Positions 5,817-41,767 of a DNA stretch of 45,063 nucleotides are shown here, one piece after another. A program made the translations under genes and the position numbers. Origin of the DNA: a virus. How positions within the stretch are numbered: the first letter of the stretch is position 1; every line of letters begins with the position of its first letter. The stretch is taken from IMG/VR virus record IMGVR_UViG_3300025087_002150; one strand, 5' to 3'. A model generated the notes under the pieces. It had not been told where the DNA came from, searched no databases, and was given only the letters and a program-made list of their open reading frames with translations.

Positions 5817-6352
5817 CCTATTTCTTCCCCCCGTAATTCCTGCCCTCTTAATTCGATTTCCAGTTCGATATCCCTCTGCAACGAAGGTCCAATATCAGAA
5901 CTTCTGACTTGCCCCCTCAAAGATTCTAAACTCCTCTCACTTCTAGCTCTACCTACCCTTTCCGAGAATGCTTCTGCCAAGGCTCTCCTTTCCTCCCTTG
6001 TCCCGAATTTCTCCTCTCTAACTTCTCTTATAGCTCTCCTTTCTAAATCAGTTTTCGCTCTCTTTTCAAGTTGGGTAAAATCACTTTCTCGGAAGGTTTT
6101 TTCCTTTATCCTATTTCTAAAGATTATTGCTATTCTTTCTTCGCCTATTTGTCTCTCTGTCTCTCTAATAACTTCCGCTCTCCCTAGAACTTTCGCAACA
6201 GCTCTTCCGTGGGTGGGGGTCTTTTCAAAAGCTCTTACAATCCTCTTTTGCTCCTCGACAATATCTCTTATCGAAGTCGCATTTTCTAGAACAGAATCTA
6301 AATTCATCAATCTTGGATTTAATGTCCAACTAACTAATTTGTCCGTTGCCAT
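5813..6352 (-). CDS. Highly charged helical protein
   Basis: R/E-rich ORF directly downstream of the primase. Confidence 0.65.
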   Translation of the reverse strand: MATDKLVSWTLNPRLMNLDSVLENATSIRDIVEEQKRIVRAFEKTPTHGRAVAKVLGRAEVIRETERQIGEERIAIIFRNRIKEKTFRESDFTQLEKRAKTDLERRAIREVREEKFGTREERRALAEAFSERVGRARSERSLESLRGQVRSSDIGPSLQRDIELEIELRGQELRGEEIG

Positions 6353-7704
6353 TTTTCATAGACTAAACTTTCCTCCCCAATAAGATTCTCTCTTTCCCTC
6401 ACCTGAAAACCAAGCTTCCTCAAAAGGTCAGCGTGAGGGCGAGAATAGATATTATTGTCTTCTCCAGATACGAGGTTTTTTGAGAAAAGAGGCTCCCAGA
6501 CCAGAGCCATCCTAACTCCATCTTTGGTTAGCCAGCCTTCTGTGATTGGAATGCACACTAAATTGTTTTTCTTGAAAGAAAACCTATTTGTAGAATTAGA
6601 ATGTGAATATATCTTATGGAGTCTTCCCTCATCGTGTGCTTTAAGGAATACAACTCCGTACCCATGCCTAGAAAGCATCACATAGGCATTTCCCAAATCA
6701 AACATATTTGAAAGACCAGATATTTCTTCTTCAACTCTTCTCCAGTTGGTTTGCTTTGGATAAGTAAGAAATAGGATGAATCTTTTAGTTGCAGTAATCT
6801 TATTCGTTAGATAAGTAGTTATGGCAGGTTCGCCTAGCCCAGGCGATAATCCTGCCTGCTCTAATGTAGGTGGGCTGGTTTGCCGACCATCATCGCCTCT
6901 GGTTTCTCCCGCAGGAAACCTTCCTCGGCTCAATGGGCTCCCATCAAGGTCTTGATGAGTATGAAGGGAAGCGGATGGACGTTCTTGTGTAGAAGAACTT
7001 TTTGAGGTATGATTTTCCGCTTCCCTATTTGGGCATGTATAAGGCAAGGAATGTTCAGTGCTGCATGCCAACTGATTTGCTCCTTTAGCCTTCTTCAATA
7101 TAAAGTCAGCACTTTTATTTAAATCTTTCGCTTCTAAAAATATAGCTCGATTCCCTGAAGTACCATTTATCGTCAGAGGCAATCTTATAACTCTGAACCT
7201 ATCTTCTGTAATCGGCAGGTCAATAAGTTGAGAAATTTTGCAGTATCTTTTTTCCTCCAAGTATCTCTTTGTTTTTATGGAGTGTTCATACACGATTTCA
7301 AATCCTTTATTACCAGAATAGATTATGTAAGTTGGCTCGCCCAAATCTTGCTTTATTGTGTTTAGAACAAATAATGTCCTCCCTCTTGCTTCATCAAGTT
7401 TCTCTGGAGTTATAGTCTCCCCTTTTTCTAGCTTTGCATCAATGTCAAATATTAAATCTCTGAATAATGAAACGTTCCAGCTACCCGTCTGATTTCCTTT
7501 AACTTGTAGTGGATTAAGCCAGCATGTAACTCCGAACCAGACATGCTTTGGAGAATAAGAAAGTAGAATCTCTCTAAAATCTGTTTTGCTCCTAATTCTC
7601 TTTGGAACATTTATAACTCTTCCATCTTGAAGTTGTAACTTAAACTGCCTCCAACCAGAATGTTTTGGAAGCCATAGCCTTCCTTCTTCATACCCAGAGT
7701 TCAT
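6334..7704 (-). CDS. Archaeo-eukaryotic primase (PriS-like) primase-polymerase with linker and C-terminal domain
   Basis: Motif I LIFDIDA, motif II SGNKGF(E), motif III D..RVIRLPLTIN..SG. Confidence 0.85.
   Translation of the reverse strand: MNSGYEEGRLWLPKHSGWRQFKLQLQDGRVINVPKRIRSKTDFREILLSYSPKHVWFGVTCWLNPLQVKGNQTGSWNVSLFRDLIFDIDAKLEKGETITPEKLDEARGRTLFVLNTIKQDLGEPTYIIYSGNKGFEIVYEHSIKTKRYLEEKRYCKISQLIDLPITEDRFRVIRLPLTINGTSGNRAIFLEAKDLNKSADFILKKAKGANQLACSTEHSLPYTCPNREAENHTSKSSSTQERPSASLHTHQDLDGSPLSRGRFPAGETRGDDGRQTSPPTLEQAGLSPGLGEPAITTYLTNKITATKRFILFLTYPKQTNWRRVEEEISGLSNMFDLGNAYVMLSRHGYGVVFLKAHDEGRLHKIYSHSNSTNRFSFKKNNLVCIPITEGWLTKDGVRMALVWEPLFSKNLVSGEDNNIYSRPHADLLRKLGFQVRERENLIGEESLVYEKWQRTN
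6823..7069. other. Cluster of five stem-loops inside the primase linker
   Basis: Inverted repeats 6823-28/6851-56 plus 6830-35/6841-46; 6901-06/6915-20; 6942-48/6951-57; 6965-75/7016-26 enclosing 6981-86/6993-98; 7032-37/7064-69. Confidence 0.7.
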
Positions 7705-8215: not shown

Positions 8216-8713
8216 ATGTTTAAGAGGCCAGTAGGACAAATTCAGTCACTTTCATCCCTGTATCTTCTCTATCATCTTGGATTTAGGAACATTTCTCTTA
8301 CTATTTCCTTGAATTCAAACCAGAAAATAGAGTTTGAAGAAAGGATTGGTCTTGAGCCCGGCCAATATAAAATAGATTTTGAAAGGCTTGAAAATTTCCT
8401 TGACAGGGGCAAGCCCATCCTAAATTTAGACATCCTGCGAAATGAGCAAAAGGCAATAGAAGAGATAGTTGAAATAAGTTATTCTGATTTAAAAAAACTT
8501 GGATTTATTCTCACTGCATTAAAACCCCTTGGCTGGGAAAAGGGACGGAGGGTAGTCTATGCTTTATCGAGGCTAGGGACTATTCCCCAATCAAGAATAC
8601 TTCCAGGAATTCCTGATGGGCATATTGTAGAATATGACAGGAACAATAGTAGGGTAAGATTGGTCGGAAAAAATGCTGGACTGGGAGGCACTAGCTCATG
8701 GATAGTAATGTGA
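8216..8713 (+). CDS. Hypothetical protein, first gene of the late block
   Basis: ORF under the plus-strand promoter. Confidence 0.65.
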   Translation: MFKRPVGQIQSLSSLYLLYHLGFRNISLTISLNSNQKIEFEERIGLEPGQYKIDFERLENFLDRGKPILNLDILRNEQKAIEEIVEISYSDLKKLGFILTALKPLGWEKGRRVVYALSRLGTIPQSRILPGIPDGHIVEYDRNNSRVRLVGKNAGLGGTSSWIVM

Positions 8714-10035
8714 GTCCTAATATAGAATCGAGAAGGATGATGGCCAAGGTATTTGGAAAAACCCACCTTCTCCAAAAAGATGAAAGGTTCGATAAAATAC
8801 CTATTGAACATATCCCAATTGGAGAAACATCTGATGGTAAATTAGTTTGCCTTCCAAAAGAATTCAGAGATGAACCAGTAATTATCATTTGTGGAGGCAG
8901 AGGCTCTGGGAAGACTTGGCTTCTGCATACAATATTAGATAGGACTAACAAATATACAGATAAGAATTGTCTGATTCTTAACGATTATATGAATGAATCA
9001 ACTTGGTGGAATTGGGGGTGGGATGACGAAACAAGGAAAAGAAGGCTTATCAAATTAAATGAAGAATCTGTACCTCTTCCCATAATGCACTTCTTTCCTA
9101 GTTCAAACTCTCTAAAGAAAGAGGTCTTCCGCAGAAGATACAGGTATGTCCTCTCAATCCCATTCTCAACAATAATAGACCACGCGGAGGAGTATTTCAA
9201 TTGGAAACCAGAAAGAGATAAGATATACTACTATTTCAAAAATGCTGCCGAAAAATTCAAACTGGCAAAATCAGAAGAGGAAGTGAATGAGATAATAGAA
9301 GAAGAGTTTGCAAGTGTCAGCACAAAGGGGAATGAGATGTTTGCTTCTATGAAATTTAAGCTAAAGAACATCATGGCAGAAGTTTTCAGAGCAAACTATA
9401 CGACGCTTACCTGCCATGAATCTGTTGAATCTATAGAGCTTAAAGATAAAACCACTGGCGAGATAATGTATAAAAATGACCCGATTTCTGCCTGCTATAT
9501 GGCTGGGATAGTTCCAGCAATAATGACCTCAGATATATTGACTCACGAGCGATACGCTTCCTTATTCTTTTATTACATCCTCCAGCAAAGATGGGAGAAG
9601 AAAGAACTTCCTGAGTTCAGGAACAAGGCAGAATGGTTCTTCATAGATGAAGTAAATAAGATTACTGGCAAGGGAAATGAAAAGCTTACTGAGTATGTTA
9701 CTAGGGGAAGGCACAAAAGATTCGGCATGGTTGTCTGCACTCAAAATTACTCCACCATGAATAAATTTATGAAACAGAATAAAGATTACACTTTTGTTTT
9801 GAGACAGAATTCAGATGTTGAAATAAAAGCTATATCAAATGACTGGGGACTCAAGAAATTTGAAGAAGACACAATCCAGACCTTGAAAACCCAGGAAGTT
9901 TTAGGATTGACTACACAGAAATTCTTTATTTATGACCGCAATGGTGTGCCTTACCCTCATACAGAGCCTATAAAGATGAAATCATTGTTCCCTCTTAGCT
10001 ATCATGCTCCACCAAACATTATGAAGAAAGAATGA
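8698..10035 (+). CDS. FtsK/HerA-superfamily (A32-like) ATPase, putative genome packaging/assembly ATPase
   Basis: Walker A GGRGSGKT, Walker B FFIDE, Arg finger RGRH, sensor CTQ. Confidence 0.85.
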   Translation: MDSNVSPNIESRRMMAKVFGKTHLLQKDERFDKIPIEHIPIGETSDGKLVCLPKEFRDEPVIIICGGRGSGKTWLLHTILDRTNKYTDKNCLILNDYMNESTWWNWGWDDETRKRRLIKLNEESVPLPIMHFFPSSNSLKKEVFRRRYRYVLSIPFSTIIDHAEEYFNWKPERDKIYYYFKNAAEKFKLAKSEEEVNEIIEEEFASVSTKGNEMFASMKFKLKNIMAEVFRANYTTLTCHESVESIELKDKTTGEIMYKNDPISACYMAGIVPAIMTSDILTHERYASLFFYYILQQRWEKKELPEFRNKAEWFFIDEVNKITGKGNEKLTEYVTRGRHKRFGMVVCTQNYSTMNKFMKQNKDYTFVLRQNSDVEIKAISNDWGLKKFEEDTIQTLKTQEVLGLTTQKFFIYDRNGVPYPHTEPIKMKSLFPLSYHAPPNIMKKE

Positions 10036-34396: not shown

Positions 34397-35578
34397 TCAT
34401 CTCAACAATTTTCGGTATTTGAAATAAGATGTGCGACCAAGCCCACTCACCTCGACAAAGTTCCTAACCTGCTCCTTGACCGAGCCAGAGCTTCTCATAG
34501 CTTCCCTCACCATAGCCAGAGTTTCATTATCTCTCAACACTTCTTTAGCCAAATCCTTCCAACCATCAGAATGTCTGTATAATGAAAAAAGAGCATAGAG
34601 CTTCGGAAGTGTCCTGAAATTAAGATTGATTGTGGCTTCAGATGTATTCTCCTTAACCCATTTAGCCACCCCAACCCTCTCTTTCAAGGTTAAATCTTCA
34701 TAAGGCAGTTTTGCAAATTCAAATAACAACTTTATCTTCTCCTTGTAGGAGAACTCAAGCTGACGGAGATAGCCTCTGTCTATAACTGCCTTTATATTCT
34801 CATCATTAAGATTAAGAGTATTTGAGAGAAGAAAGACCTTCCCTTTAAATTCAAACCTTTTTGGCATACCTATATCTTTTGAAGTATTGTAATTGATGTA
34901 TCTCTTTTCCCCTATTCCCCACAAGGCACTTTTTAGCATACCAACATTCAGGGGAGAATTGAATATGCCTTCAACATCATCTAATATTATAGACTTATCT
35001 TGATTATCAAAAAAGAATTCGTAAAGAGCAAGAGGTGTGCTGTAAGTATTAAGATAGGCAATATCAACCTTCATCTCTTTAAGAGTTTTGAGCATCAAGA
35101 AGCTCTTGCCAAAACCAGCTTCAGAGATTAAGAATAATGAATGAACATCAGGGCTTTGGAGAACTGCTCTCACCAAGTCTTTAACAACCTTGAAATGTTT
35201 TTCTACATCCACTTCCTTCTGTTCTGTGATAGCTATAAGCTCTTTCTCCCATTCCTCTTTAACTTTTGCTTCGTATTCCTGCATCTGCACTTCCTGTAAG
35301 TGTGCCTCGTGTTCCTTGTGCTTCAGCTTCTCTTTCTTATGCTCTTGAATGAAAGCTCTTAACTTATCGGCTATCTCTTGCTTTGCTTCGTGATAATTAA
35401 GAGAACTATCATAGTGGGCTTCTATATCAAAGCTCTGGCTATCAAGCCCAGCTTTCTGAAATTCCTTCTCCACCAATCTCTTTATAAGAGTTTTCTCGTA
35501 TTCTATCCGTGCCTTCTGGCTTACTCTGAATGTTCCTTTACTTTGCATCATCTCACAACTCCCCGAAAGGAAGGCCAT
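34397..35578 (-). CDS. AAA+ ATPase with probable C-terminal HTH
   Basis: Walker A SEAGFGKS, Walker B IILDDVE, sensor LLSN, DRG finger, GLGRTSYFKY tail. Confidence 0.8.
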   Translation of the reverse strand: MAFLSGSCEMMQSKGTFRVSQKARIEYEKTLIKRLVEKEFQKAGLDSQSFDIEAHYDSSLNYHEAKQEIADKLRAFIQEHKKEKLKHKEHEAHLQEVQMQEYEAKVKEEWEKELIAITEQKEVDVEKHFKVVKDLVRAVLQSPDVHSLFLISEAGFGKSFLMLKTLKEMKVDIAYLNTYSTPLALYEFFFDNQDKSIILDDVEGIFNSPLNVGMLKSALWGIGEKRYINYNTSKDIGMPKRFEFKGKVFLLSNTLNLNDENIKAVIDRGYLRQLEFSYKEKIKLLFEFAKLPYEDLTLKERVGVAKWVKENTSEATINLNFRTLPKLYALFSLYRHSDGWKDLAKEVLRDNETLAMVREAMRSSGSVKEQVRNFVEVSGLGRTSYFKYRKLLR

Positions 35579-35620: not shown

Positions 35621-35905
35621 TCATATCAACCCCCGCCAAGATAGAAAGCGTAGCTTTCCTCTTTTAGTTTCTTGTAGAAATTGCACATTTCCCCTAATTT
35701 TTCCATCTCTATCAATTCTTTTTTTAATATCTTTACTTTGTTCTCCACTAACCGCTACCTTTATACCCTCTTTATTTGTGAGGGTTATGCCCTTCCCGTG
35801 AGGCATAAGCTCATAGTTCTGGAACTCCACTACCTTCTCCTTCCAGAACTTATATTTTAACGAGTTATTACTTCTTACATTCTCATAAATCCCCTCTAAA
35901 TTAAG
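35621..35905 (-). pseudogene. C-terminal motif V and OB-fold of the DNA ligase, behind an in-frame TAA
   Basis: Same frame as 35906..37276; reads LNLEGIYENVRSNNSLKYK...VQFLQETKRGKLRFLSWRGL. Confidence 0.75.
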
Positions 35906-37276
35906 TTAAATTATGCCTTCCCCCCCCTCTCTTTTAAATTCTTCTATCTTACTCAAGTCAACAAAATTCTCCGCAATTTTCACTACTTCATTTTCAAGAA
36001 CGCAAGAATTTAGAATCTTATATCTTTTTTCGTAACTAAATCCTCTTAGATTTCTACTATTGGAATAAATCTCATCAAATAATACTATTTTTGAAGGAAG
36101 CATATTTCTTAATTCCTCAAAACCGCTTTCCGAATGGACACGGCTCTGAATTTTATTAAAATCCCCATCCCTTGAGATTATTTCTCCTATAAAAATTGCA
36201 TCATTCGGGACTATACTTCTAATGATAGATTCAACTATCTCTGGGAATTTCCTTGTTATATCTCTCATTTCTCTATTATATAGTCTAACCTGCCTTCCTG
36301 TAAGCCTTACACAACATAAAATGCCATCATACTTTTGCTGGAATATCCATCTTCCATTTTCTATTAGATTATCTGTTTTATTGCACAGCATAAAGCCTAT
36401 TCTCTGAACATTTAATCTGTGGGAAATCTCGCTATCCTCAATACCAATCTTCTCTTTAAATTCTTTTGAATACGGATGGTCAGCATTTATAATTTCTCTA
36501 TCTATAATGTTCTTACTTTCTATTGTAGTCAGGTATTCTTTAATTCTATCGTCTTTTCTTTTAATAGTTAATATGTTACCGAACAAGAAATACAGCTTTA
36601 AGGCATTTCTATTATAAGTCCTTATAGAAGTAACTCCTTTATTATCATTAGCCTCGTAGAAAACTATTTTAAAATCGGTCAAGATTTTGCGAAGGAGTGA
36701 TAGAACTTTTCTATCTTTATTTGATAAACTAAGACCTAATATGCTCCTATCTCTGTCGTAAGTTACACACCCCTCGCTATCAAACATTCCTCTTAAAAAC
36801 TCAATTCCTTGCATATCATTTGTTAAGTCTAATCCATTAATCTTATCTATAAAAAACTCAACAACCTTCTTTCTACTACACGAATATTTGTATAAATCCT
36901 TCCCCCCAAAAGCGTTTTTGCTCTGGCTTATCCTCCTTATCTTTTCATCTATCTCCACGATACTTTCAAACTCCCTCTTAAATTTCTCTACAAACTCGTA
37001 ATCAGTAGCCATCAAGGCAACTTTATTGATTAATCCATTTTGATGTATAGTTCCATCTCCCATTAAAGTACCAATAACATAAAACAACGATTTTTCATCT
37101 AGTGGATATTTAAAGTGCGTTATCTTCAAATTTTTTAGACCTATTCTTTCCCTCACTTCTTTATTGAATTTACTTATCTTTCCTCTACTCATCAATTCGT
37201 TATACTTCTCAGTAGCGTTTTCTTTCTCTTTCTTACCCTGCATAAATAACCTTCTCTGCATCTGAAATTTTCCCAT
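35906..37276 (-). CDS. LAGLIDADG homing endonuclease fused to an ATP-dependent DNA ligase adenylation domain
   Basis: VIGTLMGDG and FLRGMFDSEG motifs; then QKYDG, LYNRE..DIT.KFPEI, IGEII, VLFDEI, EGII*. Confidence 0.85.
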   Translation of the reverse strand: MGKFQMQRRLFMQGKKEKENATEKYNELMSRGKISKFNKEVRERIGLKNLKITHFKYPLDEKSLFYVIGTLMGDGTIHQNGLINKVALMATDYEFVEKFKREFESIVEIDEKIRRISQSKNAFGGKDLYKYSCSRKKVVEFFIDKINGLDLTNDMQGIEFLRGMFDSEGCVTYDRDRSILGLSLSNKDRKVLSLLRKILTDFKIVFYEANDNKGVTSIRTYNRNALKLYFLFGNILTIKRKDDRIKEYLTTIESKNIIDREIINADHPYSKEFKEKIGIEDSEISHRLNVQRIGFMLCNKTDNLIENGRWIFQQKYDGILCCVRLTGRQVRLYNREMRDITRKFPEIVESIIRSIVPNDAIFIGEIISRDGDFNKIQSRVHSESGFEELRNMLPSKIVLFDEIYSNSRNLRGFSYEKRYKILNSCVLENEVVKIAENFVDLSKIEEFKREGGEGII

Positions 37277-37319
37277 CTTACCCCTATCGCTCCGCTCTTT
37301 TATTCATCACTTTTATTCA

Positions 37320-37442
37320 TCACTTCGCAATAGTTTTAGCACAATTCAAGCAGATAACCCTGCCTCTCCACTTGTATTCCTTGCCTTCCTCTATCGGCTT
37401 CCCGCAGTTCTGGCACATCCTTCCGCATATTGTCCTTTCCAT
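37320..37442 (-). CDS. 40-aa Zn-finger mini-protein (CQNC...CLNC)
   Basis: Manual translation MERTICGRMCQNCGKPIEEG... Confidence 0.6.
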   Translation of the reverse strand: MERTICGRMCQNCGKPIEEGKEYKWRGRVICLNCAKTIAK

Positions 37443-37464
37443 TTTATAGATAGACATACAGATT

Positions 37465-37794
37465 TTACTTTTCTAATAAGCTAACCTTGTTTATCCCATA
37501 TATCTTAATGTTCTTATTCTTCTTCCCCGTATCGTAGATGAATCTTAAATTAAGGAGCAGTCTTTTATATCCATACATAGTAGCAGGAGATACTCCAAAT
37601 TCTTCCGCAATAGCTACTTCAAGTATATTGCTCGGCACTTCATTAACGCATCCCCTATCCTTAACTTTATCTATAACATTAGCAAGTTTTTTGTAGTCCG
37701 CCATCTTATCTCTCTCTATCTTTATCTCTATTTTAGATAGCTTCTCTTTATAAACTCTTCTTCCTTTCATAACCATTTTATCTTTCATCTCCAC
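37465..37794 (-). CDS. Possible winged-helix protein
   Basis: IAEEFGVSPATMYGYKRLL. Confidence 0.55.
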   Translation of the reverse strand: MEMKDKMVMKGRRVYKEKLSKIEIKIERDKMADYKKLANVIDKVKDRGCVNEVPSNILEVAIAEEFGVSPATMYGYKRLLLNLRFIYDTGKKNKNIKIYGINKVSLLEK

Positions 37795-38030
37795 TTAAAA
37801 TCCCTAAAGTCCCAATAAGCATCTCCTCTCAAGAAAATAAACTTGCCTTCTTCAACAACCTCCCATTTACCATTTTCTTCTTTGGTTTCTGTATAACTCG
37901 TAAGGCTCATAGCCCCATTTCTCTCGTAGAAGCCCCTTAGCTCACCCATTACTTTGTGCCCATTCTTGAGAGTTACAACTATTAGCTTACCTATTAACTG
38001 CTTCGTGTTAAGAGATTCCTCTATAACCAT
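37785..38030 (-). CDS. Sm/Lsm-like RNA-binding protein
   Basis: Sm1 IGKLIVVTLKNGHKVMGELRGF...MSL...E; Sm2 GKFIFLRGD. Confidence 0.7.
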   Translation of the reverse strand: MVIEESLNTKQLIGKLIVVTLKNGHKVMGELRGFYERNGAMSLTSYTETKEENGKWEVVEEGKFIFLRGDAYWDFRDFKWR

Positions 38031-38395
38031 TTTTCAATATTCTCCTCAAAATTCTTAGGTTTCTCTATCTGCTTCAAGTCGGAAGCACGAATGACAAATT
38101 GAATATCGCCATCATTATTGTAGGTCTGCCCGAACTTATAGATGTCGGCAAGAGGGATAGTATGATACTCTACCTTATCCTTCTCATTAACATAATGGCA
38201 GACAACACCAACTATATGATATTTTCTTCTTAATTCGGCAAGTAGCTCCTGCGAGATTGCAAAGAAGGAGTGAAAAATCCCGAAGTAATGCTTCTTGTAT
38301 TCCCTTCTTGTGTAATAGACATTCCCCTTTGATGAAGGGAATACCCAACCGACCATCTCTGGTCTGCCATCCAGCTTCCAATAGATTTTATTCAT
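38021..38395 (-). CDS. Hypothetical viral protein
   Basis: Coupled ORF. Confidence 0.65.
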   Translation of the reverse strand: MNKIYWKLDGRPEMVGWVFPSSKGNVYYTRREYKKHYFGIFHSFFAISQELLAELRRKYHIVGVVCHYVNEKDKVEYHTIPLADIYKFGQTYNNDGDIQFVIRASDLKQIEKPKNFEENIEKWL

Positions 38396-38574
38396 CTTTC
38401 CTCCTTCTTCCTAAGATAGTATGTCTTCTGGTATGCCTTATATTTGGCCGTCTTCTGGTATGTCTTCTGGTTTTCCCTATGTCGTTCTCTTTGGCAGTTC
38501 AACTTTCCGCAAGTTTTCTGCCACAGGCTCGGATTCTCTATTTCCTTTTTACAGATTTTGCACTTTTTTTTCAT
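38392..38574 (-). CDS. Zn-finger protein, single-repeat paralog of 1832..2119
   Basis: MKKKCKICKKEIENPSLWQKTCGKLNC...QKTAKYKAYQKTYYLRKK; lies within track ORF 38392..38700. Confidence 0.7.
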   Translation of the reverse strand: MKKKCKICKKEIENPSLWQKTCGKLNCQRERHRENQKTYQKTAKYKAYQKTYYLRKKEER

Positions 38575-38846
38575 CCTTTCTCTCCGAAAAGCTCTTGTTC
38601 TACTATGGCGCAGAATCCAGCGAATCTGCCTTTTTGCTCTGGGTGCGTTTTCATCTGCCTTAGCTTCTCCCGCATCTCCTTCAGGTGGGTGAGGTGGCAC
38701 TGGGTTGCTTTAAGTTCTCCCTGTAACCTGTTAAGCTTACTTTCATAGAGAGTTACATTTATGAAATTTCCCTCTCTTAATCCTATTTTATCTATCTTCT
38801 TTTCAAGCTCCTGTTCTTTCTTCTCAAGTTCTTCAAAGGTAAGCAT
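38571..38846 (-). CDS. Paralog family A member 4
   Basis: EELEKKEQELEKKID...TQCHLTHLKEMREK...ELFGEKG. Confidence 0.75.
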   Translation of the reverse strand: MLTFEELEKKEQELEKKIDKIGLREGNFINVTLYESKLNRLQGELKATQCHLTHLKEMREKLRQMKTHPEQKGRFAGFCAIVEQELFGEKG

Positions 38847-38994
38847 CTTTTATTTCCTCCTCTATTCTTATTCTCCTATATTGATATTCATCCAAATTAT
38901 AAGTTCCAGTTGGATATATACACCGCATTATTCGGCTCATTAACTTTGAGACCTTCTTTTCCTTCTCAAGTTCTTTTATTGTTTTCATTTTCAT
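38833..38994 (-). CDS. 53-aa protein with the family A N-terminal block only
   Basis: MKMKTIKELEKEK then unrelated sequence. Confidence 0.5.
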   Translation of the reverse strand: MKMKTIKELEKEKKVSKLMSRIMRCIYPTGTYNLDEYQYRRIRIEEEIKDAYL

Positions 38995-39086
38995 CTGTTC
39001 TCCCCCTTAACCGCTTTCTCTATACATTCATCGCAGTAAGGAACATCCTTTTCTACTTTTGCTTTCCTGCAAGTTTTACATTTCAT
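38991..39086 (-). CDS. 31-aa Zn-finger mini-protein
   Basis: MKCKTC...YCDEC; coupled at both ends. Confidence 0.55.
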   Translation of the reverse strand: MKCKTCRKAKVEKDVPYCDECIEKAVKGENR

Positions 39087-39190
39087 TCTTCCCCTCCATG
39101 ACACTTACATTTGCAACTTCGCCATCTAGCTTTCAGATTGCCTTTTTTGCAGTCCTTACAATCTCCTCTTCTACATCTGCCTGTTTTCAT
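39083..39190 (-). CDS. 35-aa Cys-rich mini-protein
   Basis: MKTGRCRRGDCKDC...CKCKCHGGEE after the GGAGAGGAAGG motif. Confidence 0.5.
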   Translation of the reverse strand: MKTGRCRRGDCKDCKKGNLKARWRSCKCKCHGGEE

Positions 39191-39437
39191 CCTTCCTCTC
39201 CTCAAGCTCTCGCTTCCTCCCACTCTTCCTCTGATTCTGGCTACCAAGACCAAGAGCAACACCAAAAACAACAGCAACAAGAGCACCAACACCAACGCCA
39301 AAAACAAGAGCAACATCAACGTCAACGCCAATAGCAACACCAACGCCAAAAACAAGAGCACCAGAAATAACAAGAGCACCAAGAGCACCAAGACCAAGAG
39401 CACCACTTTCCGTCTCAAGTTCTTTTATCATTTTCAT
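39171..39437 (-). CDS. Gly/Val/Ala-rich low-complexity membrane protein
   Basis: MKMIKELETE start coupled to the upstream stop; reading frame ambiguous. Confidence 0.45.
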   Translation of the reverse strand: MKMIKELETESGALGLGALGALVISGALVFGVGVAIGVDVDVALVFGVGVGALVAVVFGVALGLGSQNQRKSGRKRELEERKDENRQM

Positions 39438-39543
39438 AATCTTTCTCCCATCCTCTCAAGAGCATCGGCTATCCTCTTAAGCTGTGCGTGTATGTTCAAC
39501 GCTATTGTTTCATCCATATTTTAGTCCGTAACTGCCCTGCGGT

Positions 39544-39798
39544 TCATCCATATTCTCTTCCCTTGTCCAGACAGAAGTCGCAAACGAGTTCATAGTCCTC
39601 GCCATCAACCTTCATCCTGTTCAAGAAGTCAGCTTCAAGATAATCCTCACATAAAGCACACTTATCACAATTACATTCCTTGTCCTCTTTCTTGCAGTAG
39701 CCACATACTATCCTGACCTGCCATCTCTTTCTTACCTCTGCCCTAAATGGCAAGTCATAAAGCTGTTCATATATTTGTTCTTCCATTTTTATCTCCAA
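39544..39798 (-). CDS. Cys-rich Zn-binding protein, paralog of 3766..3978
   Basis: RWQVRIVCGYC..ECNC..CALC..CDFC. Confidence 0.7.
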   Translation of the reverse strand: MEIKMEEQIYEQLYDLPFRAEVRKRWQVRIVCGYCKKEDKECNCDKCALCEDYLEADFLNRMKVDGEDYELVCDFCLDKGREYG

Positions 39799-40125
39799 CT
39801 ACAACAATAACACTTTCCTCACAAACTCCTGCCTTTTCCTCTCTCCCTCTTTTGAAATCTTTAATTTTCTTTTGTTGCCAACACCGACCTGTAAGATATA
39901 CCCCCCCTTAATCAATCCGTTAATAATCCTCGTTGTATACACATATTCTACTTTCAGACAAGAAGATATATACGAAGCAGTTTTATTTTTATCTTCTATC
40001 TGGTGGAGTAATTGAAGTATTCTCCATTCAGTTTTTCTAATTCCTATCTCTTTTTCAAGGTTATCCATTCTACGCTGTTCTTGTAGTAGTAGTTCTATTC
40101 CCTTTATATATTTTTCTCTACCCAT
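39799..40125 (-). CDS. MarR-like winged-helix protein
   Basis: WRILQLL...ASYISS...TRIINGLIKGGYI...KRKLKISKEG. Confidence 0.75.
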   Translation of the reverse strand: MGREKYIKGIELLLQEQRRMDNLEKEIGIRKTEWRILQLLHQIEDKNKTASYISSCLKVEYVYTTRIINGLIKGGYILQVGVGNKRKLKISKEGERKRQEFVRKVLLL

Positions 40126-40512
40126 CTTCCAGCTTATCCAACATTTTCTTCATATCATCTTCTGTATTCTTCAAAACCCACTCTGACTTTTTAATCTGCA
40201 TAGTGAGTATCTTAGCCAGAAATTCCTCGTCTTCTTTGGTCAGTTCTTTCATCTTCTCTCCTTATCTTCAATAATGATACAGATTATAAAGCCAAAAATA
40301 TTGTATGGCTCTCTCTCAAAAAGAAATACGTTATAAGTAATGCGTAGCTAATCAACATATACATTTGACTATTTTTCATCTTCTTCTCCGAACTTCTCTA
40401 AACAAAAATCACAAACCATCTCTGTAGCCCCTTCATCAAATTTAGTCCTCTGCATAAAAGTTAGTTCCATCATTTACCTCACCCATACAAGACTAAGACC
40501 TCTTTATCCTCT

Positions 40513-40734
40513 TTAGTTAGTTCCATCATTCACCTCAAACTCCAGCATCTTTTTTACATCTTCTAATCTAAATCTTAATTGCTCTCTTAAATCAAAAACA
40601 ACAAGTCTTTCCTCTATCTGCTCAAGCAAGGCAAGAATATCGCTTTTCGCCTGTGCTTTATGGTATCTTTCGTATTCTTGTTCCATTTTCAAATTTTCAT
40701 ATAACACTCTGTTCCATAGTTTAATATAATCCAA
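40513..40734 (-). CDS. Hypothetical helical protein
   Basis: Track ORF; start uncertain. Confidence 0.45.
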   Translation of the reverse strand: MDYIKLWNRVLYENLKMEQEYERYHKAQAKSDILALLEQIEERLVVFDLREQLRFRLEDVKKMLEFEVNDGTN

Positions 40735-40808
40735 TCAACAAAAGTATCAATACAACAAAGTGTCCTATCAAAAGGATGGCTTCCCCAGTAGGTAATGTAA
40801 CTCTCATT

Positions 40809-41387
40809 TTATTTTTTCACCATCATCATTTCGGGATTAAATCTCTCTATTTGCTCTTGTGATATTATCATCTTCTCTTGTCTTTTCTCAACAATTAACT
40901 GCTGTGATAAAGTTTCAATACTTCCCCAACCCAATATAAGCATGAGGAAATCACCTTTAGGCACAAGATAGGCTATATAGAATTTATAGCCCCCGTTTGA
41001 AAATAGAAACTCTAATGCTTTGCCTTTTTTAAGTAGGTAATCCTTCAATCTGTTGTTAAGGCACAGGTGATAGCTCTCTGGAATAATATCAAGTGCCTTC
41101 TGCATATCAACTTCTTCATAGCTCTGCACTTCCTTCGTCAGCTTCGCCCTTGCTAGTGGCTTATTATTTACAAGGCGTAGAACCTCGCTGTGTGGCTTCC
41201 CTGCCTCATCTACATAAACATTCCTCAAGCCATCAGAAATAATCGTGCCGTCTTTGAGCATCCTTGCAAACCGCAGGGGCTTACCTTCCTTGCTTACTAT
41301 GGGGTAGCTTTCCCTTAACTTCTCTGGTTGTAATGGCGTATGCAATATCTTATGTTCGCCCACCTGTAATTCTCGCCAGATACTCAT
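40809..41387 (-). CDS. Ku-like (beta-barrel) DNA end-binding protein candidate
   Basis: C-terminal half (EVD...ESYHL...LKDYLLKKGKAL..F.....YIAYLVPKGDFLMLIL) aligns by eye with the prokaryotic Ku core. Confidence 0.45.
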   Translation of the reverse strand: MSIWRELQVGEHKILHTPLQPEKLRESYPIVSKEGKPLRFARMLKDGTIISDGLRNVYVDEAGKPHSEVLRLVNNKPLARAKLTKEVQSYEEVDMQKALDIIPESYHLCLNNRLKDYLLKKGKALEFLFSNGGYKFYIAYLVPKGDFLMLILGWGSIETLSQQLIVEKRQEKMIISQEQIERFNPEMMMVKK

Positions 41388-41767
41388 CTTCCACCACCAT
41401 ATAGATTTTCGTTACATTCTTCCTGATATTTAATACCATCTGGAGTGAGGGTTAATACTCTCTTATTCTTATTCTTAATCTCCCTAACATATCCCTTTAG
41501 CTTTAAGAATGAAATCCTTTTACAAGTAGAGCTGTAATCTCTCTCCATCCTATTTGAGATAAAAATAGCATTTCTATTCTCTTGTCCTACCTGTTTAAGT
41601 ATGGTAAGTATATAGAAGTCCGCCATATTTATCCCTTTCTCTCTTGCTCTTTCCATAAAGTATGGTGGTGGTGGAAGTATATAAATGTTTTGCCTTTTCA
41701 TCTTAATCAAAAGCCACCTCTCCAGCTTCCGCCTGAACGAGCATCCCGTTAAACTCCCTCTCATCAA
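41384..41767 (-). CDS. MarR-like winged-helix protein, paralog of 39799..40125
   Basis: FYILTIL...AIFISNR...KRISFLKLKGYV...KRVLTLTPDG. Confidence 0.75.
   Translation of the reverse strand: MMRGSLTGCSFRRKLERWLLIKMKRQNIYILPPPPYFMERAREKGINMADFYILTILKQVGQENRNAIFISNRMERDYSSTCKRISFLKLKGYVREIKNKNKRVLTLTPDGIKYQEECNENLYGGGR

What the first reader, a model, noticed from the sequence alone, without database searches (positions are those of the whole stretch)
35621..41387. Possible virus-encoded end-joining kit: Ku-like protein, ligase and AEP
Seen: a Ku-like candidate (40809), an ATP-dependent ligase (35621-37276) and an AEP (6334) in one early block. Known: prokaryotic NHEJ uses Ku plus ligase and AEP polymerase activities (separate genes in Methanocella), and mycobacteriophages Omega and Corndog use their own Ku for genome circularisation. 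Inference: genome circularisation or end protection, and a plausible driver of the microhomology mosaicism seen here. This depends on the unverified Ku call, and the ligase looks damaged.
Basis: inference. Interest (0 to 1): 0.7.

Follow-up and report, generated by a model that had tools for sequence, protein, structure and literature searches.

The report
Viral mini-Ku plus small DNA ligase

Summary
The Ku call holds. ORF 40809-41387(-), 192 aa, matches no Pfam, PHROG, NCBIfam or PDB sequence. Its AlphaFold model (pLDDT 89.7) matches prokaryotic Ku best in two searches (B. subtilis and M. tuberculosis Ku, Z 10.7-10.8). A homodimer through the arm hairpins is predicted (ipSAE 0.52, best control 0.00).

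The ligase is real. It is a minimal ATP-dependent ligase of about 257 aa with an N-terminal LAGLIDADG endonuclease domain fused in frame. Its "damage" is one in-frame TAA inside motif IV. Contigs from four public studies read TTC AAA there, which gives an intact EGIIFK. The break is specific to this record.

Ku-ligase co-occurrence is strong. Seven loci from about three other lineages have mini-Ku, a small acidic ORF, then a minimal ligase. An AAA+ ATPase follows in the two long enough to show it, as it does in the window.

The AEP is a PriS-type replicative primase and was not found in the three related records searched, all incomplete. So this is a two-component Ku-ligase module, not a three-enzyme kit.

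Function (circularisation or repair of linear viral DNA) is inferred, not shown. Earlier notes of this scan report Ku plus mini-ligase pairs on other archaeal elements, but not this Ku family.

The parts
40809..41387 (-). Mini-Ku: 192-aa basic protein (pI 9.1) with a Ku beta-barrel, arm hairpins (about aa 30-72), a C-terminal helix (157-177) and a conserved C-terminal ERxNPE-like tail.
   Evidence: AF2 pLDDT 89.7. Foldseek top hit 9vnq_A, E 5.1e-5. VIA Z 10.8, rmsd 2.2 over 92 aa. Foldseek-independent search Z 10.7. Homodimer ipSAE 0.52 against controls 0.00. pI.
40513..40734 (-). Small acidic ORF (73 aa from TTG, pI 5.0) directly downstream of the mini-Ku. Acidic ORFs of 73-92 aa (pI 4.1-4.4) hold the same position in relatives, and several share a C-terminal xEV..ND ending.
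   Evidence: Rests on position, size, charge and a C-terminal motif only. No significant sequence score was obtained.
41384..41767 (-). Winged-helix protein (127 aa) whose stop overlaps the mini-Ku start (41384-41387).
   Evidence: phrog_11046 transcriptional regulator, E 4.1e-4. Weak HTH_45 match. Coordinates.
36395..37276 (-). N-terminal add-on of the ligase ORF (about aa 1-294): a two-motif LAGLIDADG homing-endonuclease domain fused in frame. Not an intein.
   Evidence: PF14528, E 1.2e-11, aa 159-225. Both LAGLIDADG motifs with their acidic residues can be read. Stand-alone ligase relatives start at the junction. No intein-splicing Pfam hit.
35621..36394 (-). Minimal ATP-dependent DNA ligase core (about 257 aa: nucleotidyltransferase plus OB, no DNA-binding domain). 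It has motif I KYDG, motif V LKYK and a motif VI-like C-terminus.
   Evidence: PF01068, E 1.2e-17. The NCBIfam alignment runs across the stop. Full-length alignment to 265-306-aa relatives. The family profile hits archaeal Lig1 2hiv at 4.3e-32 and Mtb LigD 1vs0 at 8.9e-20.
35903..35908 (-). In-frame TAA (35906-35908) plus Leu inside motif IV (reads EGII-stop-L). Five letters, 35903-35907, differ from all public contigs, which read TTC AAA (EGIIFK).
   Evidence: All relatives have EG[IV][IV]xK at this position.
37320..37472 (-). 50-aa CxxC...CxxC zinc-ribbon ORF just upstream of the ligase ORF. In L010 and L004 a similar zinc ribbon is part of the small ORF between Ku and ligase.
   Evidence: by eye only.
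34397..35578 (-). AAA+-like P-loop ATPase (393 aa) directly downstream of the ligase. The same order, ligase then ATPase, is found in L010 and L011.
   Evidence: phrog_1250, E 1.2e-23. BLASTP to the L010 ORF 1.3e-46 and to the L011 ORF 8.7e-34. Atlas neighbours are phage AAA+ ATPases.
6334..7704 (-). PriS-type archaeo-eukaryotic primase (456 aa) with a conserved C-terminal domain of unknown fold. Read as the replicative primase, not as part of the conserved Ku-ligase module.
   Evidence: NCBIfam PriS, E 1.4e-12. Profile to 1zt2_A 2.5e-14. Foldseek top hits are PriS, LigD PolDom at rank 42. Not found in G001-G003.

Best explanation
The window encodes a self-contained two-component DNA end-joining module. 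One part is a very divergent, minimal Ku-type homodimeric ring (192 aa) that would thread onto free double-strand ends. The other is a minimal ATP-dependent DNA ligase with no DNA-binding domain of its own, which the ring would recruit or position. A small acidic protein and an AAA+ ATPase are conserved accessories. The most likely use is to circularise or repair the linear viral genome in hosts that have a replicative ligase but no Ku, probably DPANN or Nanoarchaeota-like archaea. Shown here: the fold, the predicted dimer, the ligase motifs, the conserved synteny, and that the ligase frame is intact in public data. Inferred: DNA-end binding, Ku-ligase cooperation, and the biological role. The AEP at 6334-7704 is the virus's PriS-like replicative primase and is not needed for this reading.
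For: Ku fold: the model has pLDDT 89.7. The Foldseek top hits are all Ku, led by 9vnq_A at E 5.1e-5. VIA-align gives Z 10.8 with rmsd 2.2 over 92 aa to B. subtilis Ku and Z 10.7 to M. tuberculosis Ku, above SPOC domains at Z about 8. The same order comes out of a Foldseek-independent search of 48,161 chains, where unrelated folds fall to Z about 3. In the viral structure library the only hits are phage Ku homologues. Homodimer: ipSAE 0.52 against a best control of 0.00. That mark was reached by 20 of 30 solved homodimers and 1 of 23 solved single chains. Runs agree in at least 80% of contacts and the partner's pLDDT is at least 75. The interface includes reciprocal hairpin contacts (residues 40-44 with 54-56) plus barrel and helix contacts. 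Because Ku dimers have been solved, this pass may come from likeness to those structures. Synteny: Ku-like then ligase on one strand in L002 and L004-L006, in L003 and L007 as cut ligase starts, in L010 and in L011, which was found reciprocally through the ligase. These Ku proteins are only 22-50% identical between lineages. Ligase then AAA+ ATPase is conserved in the window, L010 and L011. The ligase frame is intact in four public studies. The Nanoarchaeota MAG that holds L010 has a 571-aa cellular ligase and this mini-ligase, and no PF02735 Ku was found in it. Precedent: Corndog appears to use its own Ku to recircularise a genome with 4-base overhangs (PMC4351075).
Against: No sequence method links the protein to Ku. 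No Pfam Ku hit was found in any of 42 family members, and hhalign against Corndog Ku gives probability 0.1. The ligase core is closer to archaeal replicative Lig1 than to LigD, and it scores far below the NHEJ-ligase cut-off (80.3 against 227.75 bits). One relative record, L008/G001, which is 60% complete, has the Ku-like gene but no PF01068 ligase. In the window the two genes are 3.5 kb apart, not adjacent. The genome ends are unknown, since the contig breaks in a repeat and no terminal repeats were found. No biochemical data exist.
Confidence: 0.55

Rival explanations
1. Replication-module reading: the Ku-like ring acts as a DNA-encircling tether or clamp for a ligase that has no DNA-binding domain. 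It would help seal nicks and Okazaki fragments together with the AAA+ ATPase and the PriS-like primase, rather than join ends.
For: The ligase core is closest to archaeal and eukaryotic replicative Lig1. An AAA+ ATPase is a conserved neighbour. No DNA polymerase or clamp was recognised among the large ORFs scanned. Weak Atlas feature neighbours with beta-clamp Pfam families score 0.86-0.88, which is lead level only.
Against: The fold is Ku/SPOC, not a PCNA or beta clamp. No Ku is known to me to act as a replicative clamp (own knowledge). The host MAG already has a full-length replicative ligase.
Confidence: 0.15
2. Gam-like end protection only: the ring caps viral DNA ends against host exonucleases, as Mu Gam does, and the ligase has a separate replication or repair role.
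For: Its small size (192 aa) is close to that of Mu Gam, a Ku-related end binder (own knowledge). L008 carries the Ku-like gene without any ligase in the record.
Against: Adjacency to the ligase is conserved in about four lineages at 22-50% Ku identity. No Pfam family, Gam included, was hit in 42 members at E<=0.1.
Confidence: 0.15
3. One reading: Ku, ligase and the AEP act together as a three-enzyme NHEJ system of the Methanocella type, with the AEP filling or extending ends.
For: All three genes exist in the window. The closest relative probably has both the Ku-like gene (P0004) and the AEP (P0055). This is inferred only from the same 52,508-nt JGI contig length. AEPs as a superfamily include NHEJ polymerases, and PolDom does appear among the fold hits.
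Against: The AEP is closest to replicative PriS by sequence and by fold. It lies more than 10 kb from the module. It was not found in the three related records searched, all incomplete.
Confidence: 0.1

Closest known systems
Prokaryotic Ku homodimer with LigD (B. subtilis YkoV/YkoU; M. tuberculosis Ku/LigD; PDB 9vnq, 9i91, 8v53)
   Same: Beta-barrel core with arm hairpins, a predicted homodimer, and genomic pairing with an ATP-dependent ligase.
   Different: About 190 aa against roughly 230 aa for the solved bacterial Ku cores. No detectable sequence similarity to PF02735. The partner ligase is a bare NTase-OB core with no polymerase or phosphoesterase domain, and it is closer to archaeal Lig1 than to LigD.
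Mycobacteriophage Corndog gp87 and Omega Ku (clusters O and J)
   Same: A virus-encoded Ku, proposed to circularise a linear genome on entry (PMC4351075).
   Different: Corndog Ku is a canonical PF02735 protein of 284 aa. By my own knowledge of Pitcher et al. 2006 (reference 10 of PMC4351075) it works with the host's LigD. Here the element carries its own ligase. The 11 viral Ku listed in a 2025 survey are all from actinophages (PMC11936186).
Archaeal NHEJ of Methanocella paludicola (separate Ku, Lig, AEP Pol, PE)
   Same: Separate small genes rather than a fused LigD, in an archaeal setting.
   Different: No phosphoesterase was identified, though it was not systematically searched. The AEP here is of the PriS type and is not linked to the module.
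Phage Mu Gam
   Same: A small Ku-related end-binding dimer encoded by a virus (own knowledge).
   Different: Gam has no ligase partner. No Pfam family, Gam included, was hit here at E<=0.1.
SPOC domains and the INTS13/14 Ku-like barrels
   Same: The same barrel superfamily, at Z 7.4-8.6.
   Different: They score lower than Ku. As far as I know SPOC domains have no DNA-encircling arms (own knowledge). They are not linked to ligases.

Membership tests
Ku (Pfam PF02735; prokaryotic Ku) | Significant sequence match to the Ku profile | tested here: not met
   No Pfam hit for P0001 at E<=0.1. None of the 42 family members hits PF02735. NCBIfam gives nothing. hhalign of the family against Corndog Ku gives probability 0.1. 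Positive control: Corndog gp87 hits PF02735 at 1.4e-28.
Ku (Pfam PF02735; prokaryotic Ku) | Ku-type beta-barrel fold, with Ku as the nearest neighbour | tested here: met
   Z 10.7-10.8, rmsd 2.2-2.3 over 92-94 aa to 9vnq_A and 9i91_A. These rank first in both the Foldseek-led and the exhaustive search.
Ku (Pfam PF02735; prokaryotic Ku) | Homodimer joined through arm hairpins and barrel base, forming a ring | tested here: inconclusive
   A dimer is predicted: ipSAE 0.52 against a best control of 0.00, a mark reached by 20 of 30 solved homodimers and 1 of 23 single chains. Runs agree in at least 80% of contacts and partner pLDDT is at least 75. Contacts fall at residues 30-72 and 102-167. This is a prediction only and may rest on likeness to solved Ku dimers. 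The channel could not be inspected.
Ku (Pfam PF02735; prokaryotic Ku) | Binds double-strand DNA ends | not testable with these tools
   Needs biochemistry. Only the basic pI of 9.1 is known.
Ku (Pfam PF02735; prokaryotic Ku) | Genomic linkage to an ATP-dependent DNA ligase | tested here: met
   Adjacent in L002-L007, L010 and L011, and in the same block in the window. The exception is L008.
ATP-dependent DNA ligase (PF01068) | Nucleotidyltransferase motifs I, III, IV and V plus an OB domain with motif VI | tested here: met
   PF01068, E 1.2e-17. KYDG, GE, LKYK and an RF-containing C-terminus align with relatives. Motif IV is broken in the window (EGII-stop-L) but reads EGIIFK in public contigs.
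LigD-type NHEJ ligase domain (NCBIfam TIGR02779) | Score over the family cut-off, and closest to the LigD ligase | tested here: not met
   80.3 bits against a cut-off of 227.75. The family profile is nearer archaeal Lig1 (2hiv, 4.3e-32) than Mtb LigD (1vs0, 8.9e-20).
NHEJ polymerase AEP (LigD PolDom / PrimPolC clade) | Closest relatives are PolDom-type AEPs | tested here: not met
   NCBIfam PriS models only. The PDB profile hits are all PriS. In Foldseek PriS ranks 1-41 and PolDom starts at rank 42, on a model with pLDDT 58.6.
Intein (for the LAGLIDADG segment) | Splicing blocks flanking the endonuclease, with ligase extein sequence on both sides | tested here: not met
   No intein-splicing Pfam hit in the ORF. 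The first LAGLIDADG motif lies about 65 aa from the N-terminus. Stand-alone relatives begin at the junction (FMLC), so there is no N-extein.

The most novel reading that the evidence does not exclude
A previously unrecognised mini-Ku family of about 185 aa, invisible to sequence profiles, forms a portable end-joining machine together with a small acidic partner, a DNA ligase that lacks a DNA-binding domain, and an AAA+ ATPase. Viruses and mobile elements of DPANN-type archaea carry it because their reduced hosts have no Ku. This would be the smallest Ku known and an archaeal-virus NHEJ system that does not depend on host ligase.
Probability: 0.4. Interest if true: 0.75.

Novelty: new variant of a known kind. 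Interest (0 to 1): 0.62.

Why it matters
In the 2025 survey read here, viral Ku proteins are all canonical actinophage proteins (PMC11936186). By my own knowledge these borrow the host's LigD. This family shows three things. First, Ku-like rings exist well below the reach of sequence profiles. Second, they occur on elements tied to archaea, where Ku is rare (19 archaeal sequences in that survey). Third, they travel with their own minimal ligase. That offers a very small, testable two- to four-protein end-joining system. It also gives a handle on how viruses of genome-reduced hosts circularise or repair their DNA. A 190-aa Ku with a 260-aa ligase could also be useful as a compact end-joining reagent.

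Tried and rejected
Sequence searches for the Ku candidate found nothing. These were Pfam, PHROGs, NCBIfam, PDB phmmer and a PDB profile search, plus hhalign against Corndog Ku.

The phage collection gave no DNA or protein match. IMG/VR scans with the Ku-like protein, the AEP and the ATPase found no relative. The first genome-contig scan was empty.

So the long contigs of P0004 (52.5 kb), P0005 (38.7 kb) and the other family members could not be read, and co-occurrence rests on nine loci.

No whole genome is held for the window. No tRNAs were found. No RNA holder was listed among the sequencing runs, so nothing can be said about expression.

The Atlas gave only unnamed neighbours and weak beta-clamp leads for the Ku candidate. 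The PDB sequence search of the AAA+ ATPase gave nothing meaningful.

I considered stop-codon recoding for the TAA and rejected it. The long ORFs are open under table 11, and public contigs have a sense codon there. I considered an intein reading of the LAGLIDADG segment and rejected it (see the membership test).

The AEP profile was not found in G001-G003, and PF02735 was not found there either. All are incomplete records, so these are not proofs of absence. A phosphoesterase (LigD PE) was not systematically searched for in the window.
Full report
Setting. The window is a virus-like contig of about 45 kb and no host genome is held for it. Plus-strand genes run from 8.2 to 34.3 kb. They include a P-loop ATPase with a terminase-large-subunit C-terminal match (phrog_2666, E 4.9e-15), beta-helix/NosD proteins and a CBM96 protein. 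Minus-strand genes fill 1-8 kb and 34.4-45 kb. The same DNA occurs in groundwater and soil metagenomes from six studies.

The Ku candidate (40809-41387, minus strand). This is an intact 192-aa ORF. No sequence method recognises it: Pfam, PHROGs, NCBIfam and PDB searches all failed, with the single sequence and with a family profile. None of 42 family members hits any Ku model. The gene is nonetheless real. An exhaustive HMMER scan of 1.84 billion representatives found 41 relatives of about 185 aa.

With that alignment AlphaFold2 gives a confident model: pLDDT 89.7 and pTM 0.71. The Foldseek hits against the PDB are exclusively Ku. They are led by B. subtilis Ku at E 5.1e-5, followed by M. tuberculosis Ku and Ku70/80. 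VIA-align gives Z 10.8 (rmsd 2.2 over 92 aa) and Z 10.7 for the two bacterial Ku structures. Ku80 scores about 10, and the related SPOC and INTS13/14 barrels score about 8. A Foldseek-independent comparison with 48,161 chains gives the same order, and unrelated folds drop to Z about 3. In the viral structure library the only significant hits are phage Ku homologues.

A two-copy prediction passes its controls, with ipSAE 0.52 against a best control of 0.00. That mark was reached by 20 of 30 solved homodimers and 1 of 23 solved single chains. The runs agree in at least 80% of contacts and the partner's pLDDT is at least 75. The contacts include reciprocal hairpin pairing (residues 40-44 with 54-56) and barrel-helix contacts (102-108 with 144-167). 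This is the architecture expected of a Ku ring. It remains a prediction and may lean on solved Ku dimers. An hhalign of the family against Corndog gp87, a bona fide PF02735 protein, finds nothing. I therefore call this a Ku-fold protein of a new, very divergent family. I do not file it as a member of PF02735.

The ligase (35621-37276, minus strand). The frame is continuous apart from one TAA at 35906-35908. Residues from about 295 to 551 align end to end with stand-alone ligases of 265-306 aa. Motif I is KYDG and motif V is LKYK, and there is a motif VI-like C-terminus. Motif IV reads EGII-stop-L where every relative has EG[IV][IV]xK.

I laid Logan contigs of four runs from four studies on the region. 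Exactly five adjacent letters (35903-35907) differ, in all four runs, including the run that may be the source of this DNA. On the coding strand the public contigs read TTC AAA, which gives EGIIFK. The "damage" therefore belongs to this record. It is either an assembly or consensus artefact or a rare variant. Contigs drop rare variants, so raw reads would be needed to decide.

The N-terminal 294 residues or so are a two-motif LAGLIDADG endonuclease (PF14528, E 1.2e-11). This segment is fused in frame and is identical in the public contigs. Relatives start exactly at the junction and no splicing blocks are detected, so it is not an intein. The best NCBIfam model for the ligase is the NHEJ ligase domain, but it scores far below the cut-off. 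The family profile is closer to archaeal replicative ligases (2hiv, 4.3e-32) than to Mtb LigD (1vs0, 8.9e-20). The protein is best described as a minimal, archaeal-type ligase core without a DNA-binding domain.

Co-occurrence. Seven short metagenome loci hold Ku-like relatives.
- In L002, L004, L005 and L006 a PF01068 ligase (E 1e-30 to 1e-40) follows on the same strand within a few hundred bases.
- L003 and L007 end inside the start of such a ligase.
- L001 is cut 70 nt after the Ku-like gene.
- L010, a contig of a Nanoarchaeota MAG, has Ku-like, a 76-aa ORF, a ligase, and then an ATPase homologous to window 34397-35578 at E 1.3e-46.
- A reciprocal search of IMG/VR with the ligase alignment found one contig, L011. 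It has Ku-like (HMM E 5e-49), small ORFs, a ligase, an AAA+ ATPase, and also a tyrosine integrase.
- The exception is L008 (IMG/VR, 60% complete). It has the Ku-like gene but no PF01068 ligase.

The Ku proteins of these lineages are 22-50% identical (window, L002, L010, and the L003-L007/L011 group, which share 69-100%). The linkage is therefore old. A small acidic ORF (pI 4.1-5.0) follows the basic Ku-like gene (pI 9.1) in the window and in most relatives.

In the window the module is split by about 3.2 kb of small, repeat-rich paralogous genes. Public contigs show alternative joints in that stretch.

The MAG that holds L010 has a 571-aa cellular ligase as well as this mini-ligase, and no canonical Ku was found in it.

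The AEP (6334-7704, minus strand). This is a genuine AEP, with FDIDA, a KGF-containing motif II and the RLPxTxN motif. NCBIfam PriS models match at 1.4e-12. The family profile hits only archaeal PriS structures (1zt2 at 2.5e-14). A low-confidence model (pLDDT 58.6) matches PriS first and LigD PolDom only from rank 42. The AEP profile finds nothing in the records of L008, L010 or L011, all of which are incomplete. Its closest relative, P0055, probably shares a 52.5-kb contig with the Ku-like P0004. That is inferred only from equal contig lengths. I read this gene as the replicative primase.

Interpretation. The best-supported reading is a two-component end-joining module made of the mini-Ku and the minimal ligase, with an acidic protein and an AAA+ ATPase as conserved companions. 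It would circularise or repair linear viral DNA in hosts that lack Ku. The fold, the motifs and the synteny are shown. DNA-end binding, cooperation with the ligase and the biological role are inferred.

Two rivals remain open: a replication-tether role and Gam-like end protection.

The closest precedent is Corndog's Ku-dependent recircularisation (PMC4351075). A 2025 survey lists only 11 viral Ku, all from actinophages, and 19 archaeal Ku (PMC11936186). A full-text search found no paper that pairs "Ku-like" with archaeal viruses.

Earlier unchecked notes of this scan report Ku plus mini-ligase pairs on other putative archaeal elements.

Noticed in passing
window 35903-35907: A block of five adjacent letters differs from the contigs of four public runs from four studies, including the probable source sample. 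It creates the only stop in the ligase frame and removes the motif IV lysine. It looks like a record-specific artefact or a rare variant.
   Followed up: yes
window 36395-37276 (-): A LAGLIDADG homing endonuclease with both acidic motif residues is fused in frame to the N-terminus of the ligase, with no stop and no obvious ribosome-binding site before the ligase's ancestral start. It is unclear whether the fusion protein is functional or the ligase is made separately.
   Followed up: partly
window 8698-10035 (+): The C-terminal part (aa 315-413) of this P-loop ATPase matches the PHROG terminase large subunit (phrog_2666, E 4.9e-15).
   Followed up: partly
window 38565-39241: Public contigs show alternative joints between paralogous small-gene cassettes (38595 to 38664/38665, 38687 to 38959, 38595 to 41461) and a 10-nt deletion at 39199. 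This stretch, which separates the Ku-like gene from the ligase, varies within the population.
   Followed up: no
window 37320-37472 (-); L010:3027-3257; L004:587-928: A CxxC...CxxC zinc-ribbon mini-ORF sits just upstream of the ligase in the window. In L010 and L004 a similar zinc ribbon is part of the small ORF between Ku-like and ligase. This suggests the window's module was once contiguous and was later split by an insertion.
   Followed up: partly
window 40809-40850 (C-terminus of the mini-Ku): After a low-confidence linker the family keeps a short C-terminal motif (ERFNPE in the window, and similar V/I-E/N-R-A-x-x-E-x-L endings in relatives). It is a candidate docking peptide for the ligase or the acidic protein.
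   Followed up: no
L008:5410-6801 (-) and L008:12622-14617 (+): A related viral contig encodes a group II chaperonin (Cpn60/TCP1, E 1.5e-95). It also has a RuvB-like AAA+ ATPase split into a P-loop plus intein N-part, an HNH endonuclease ORF, and an intein C-part plus the remainder.
   Followed up: no
L001:3-686 (+): A zincin-like MPTase-PolyVal metallopeptidase domain (E 7e-29) lies upstream of the Ku-like gene in one relative. This domain is typical of large polyvalent proteins of mobile elements.
   Followed up: no
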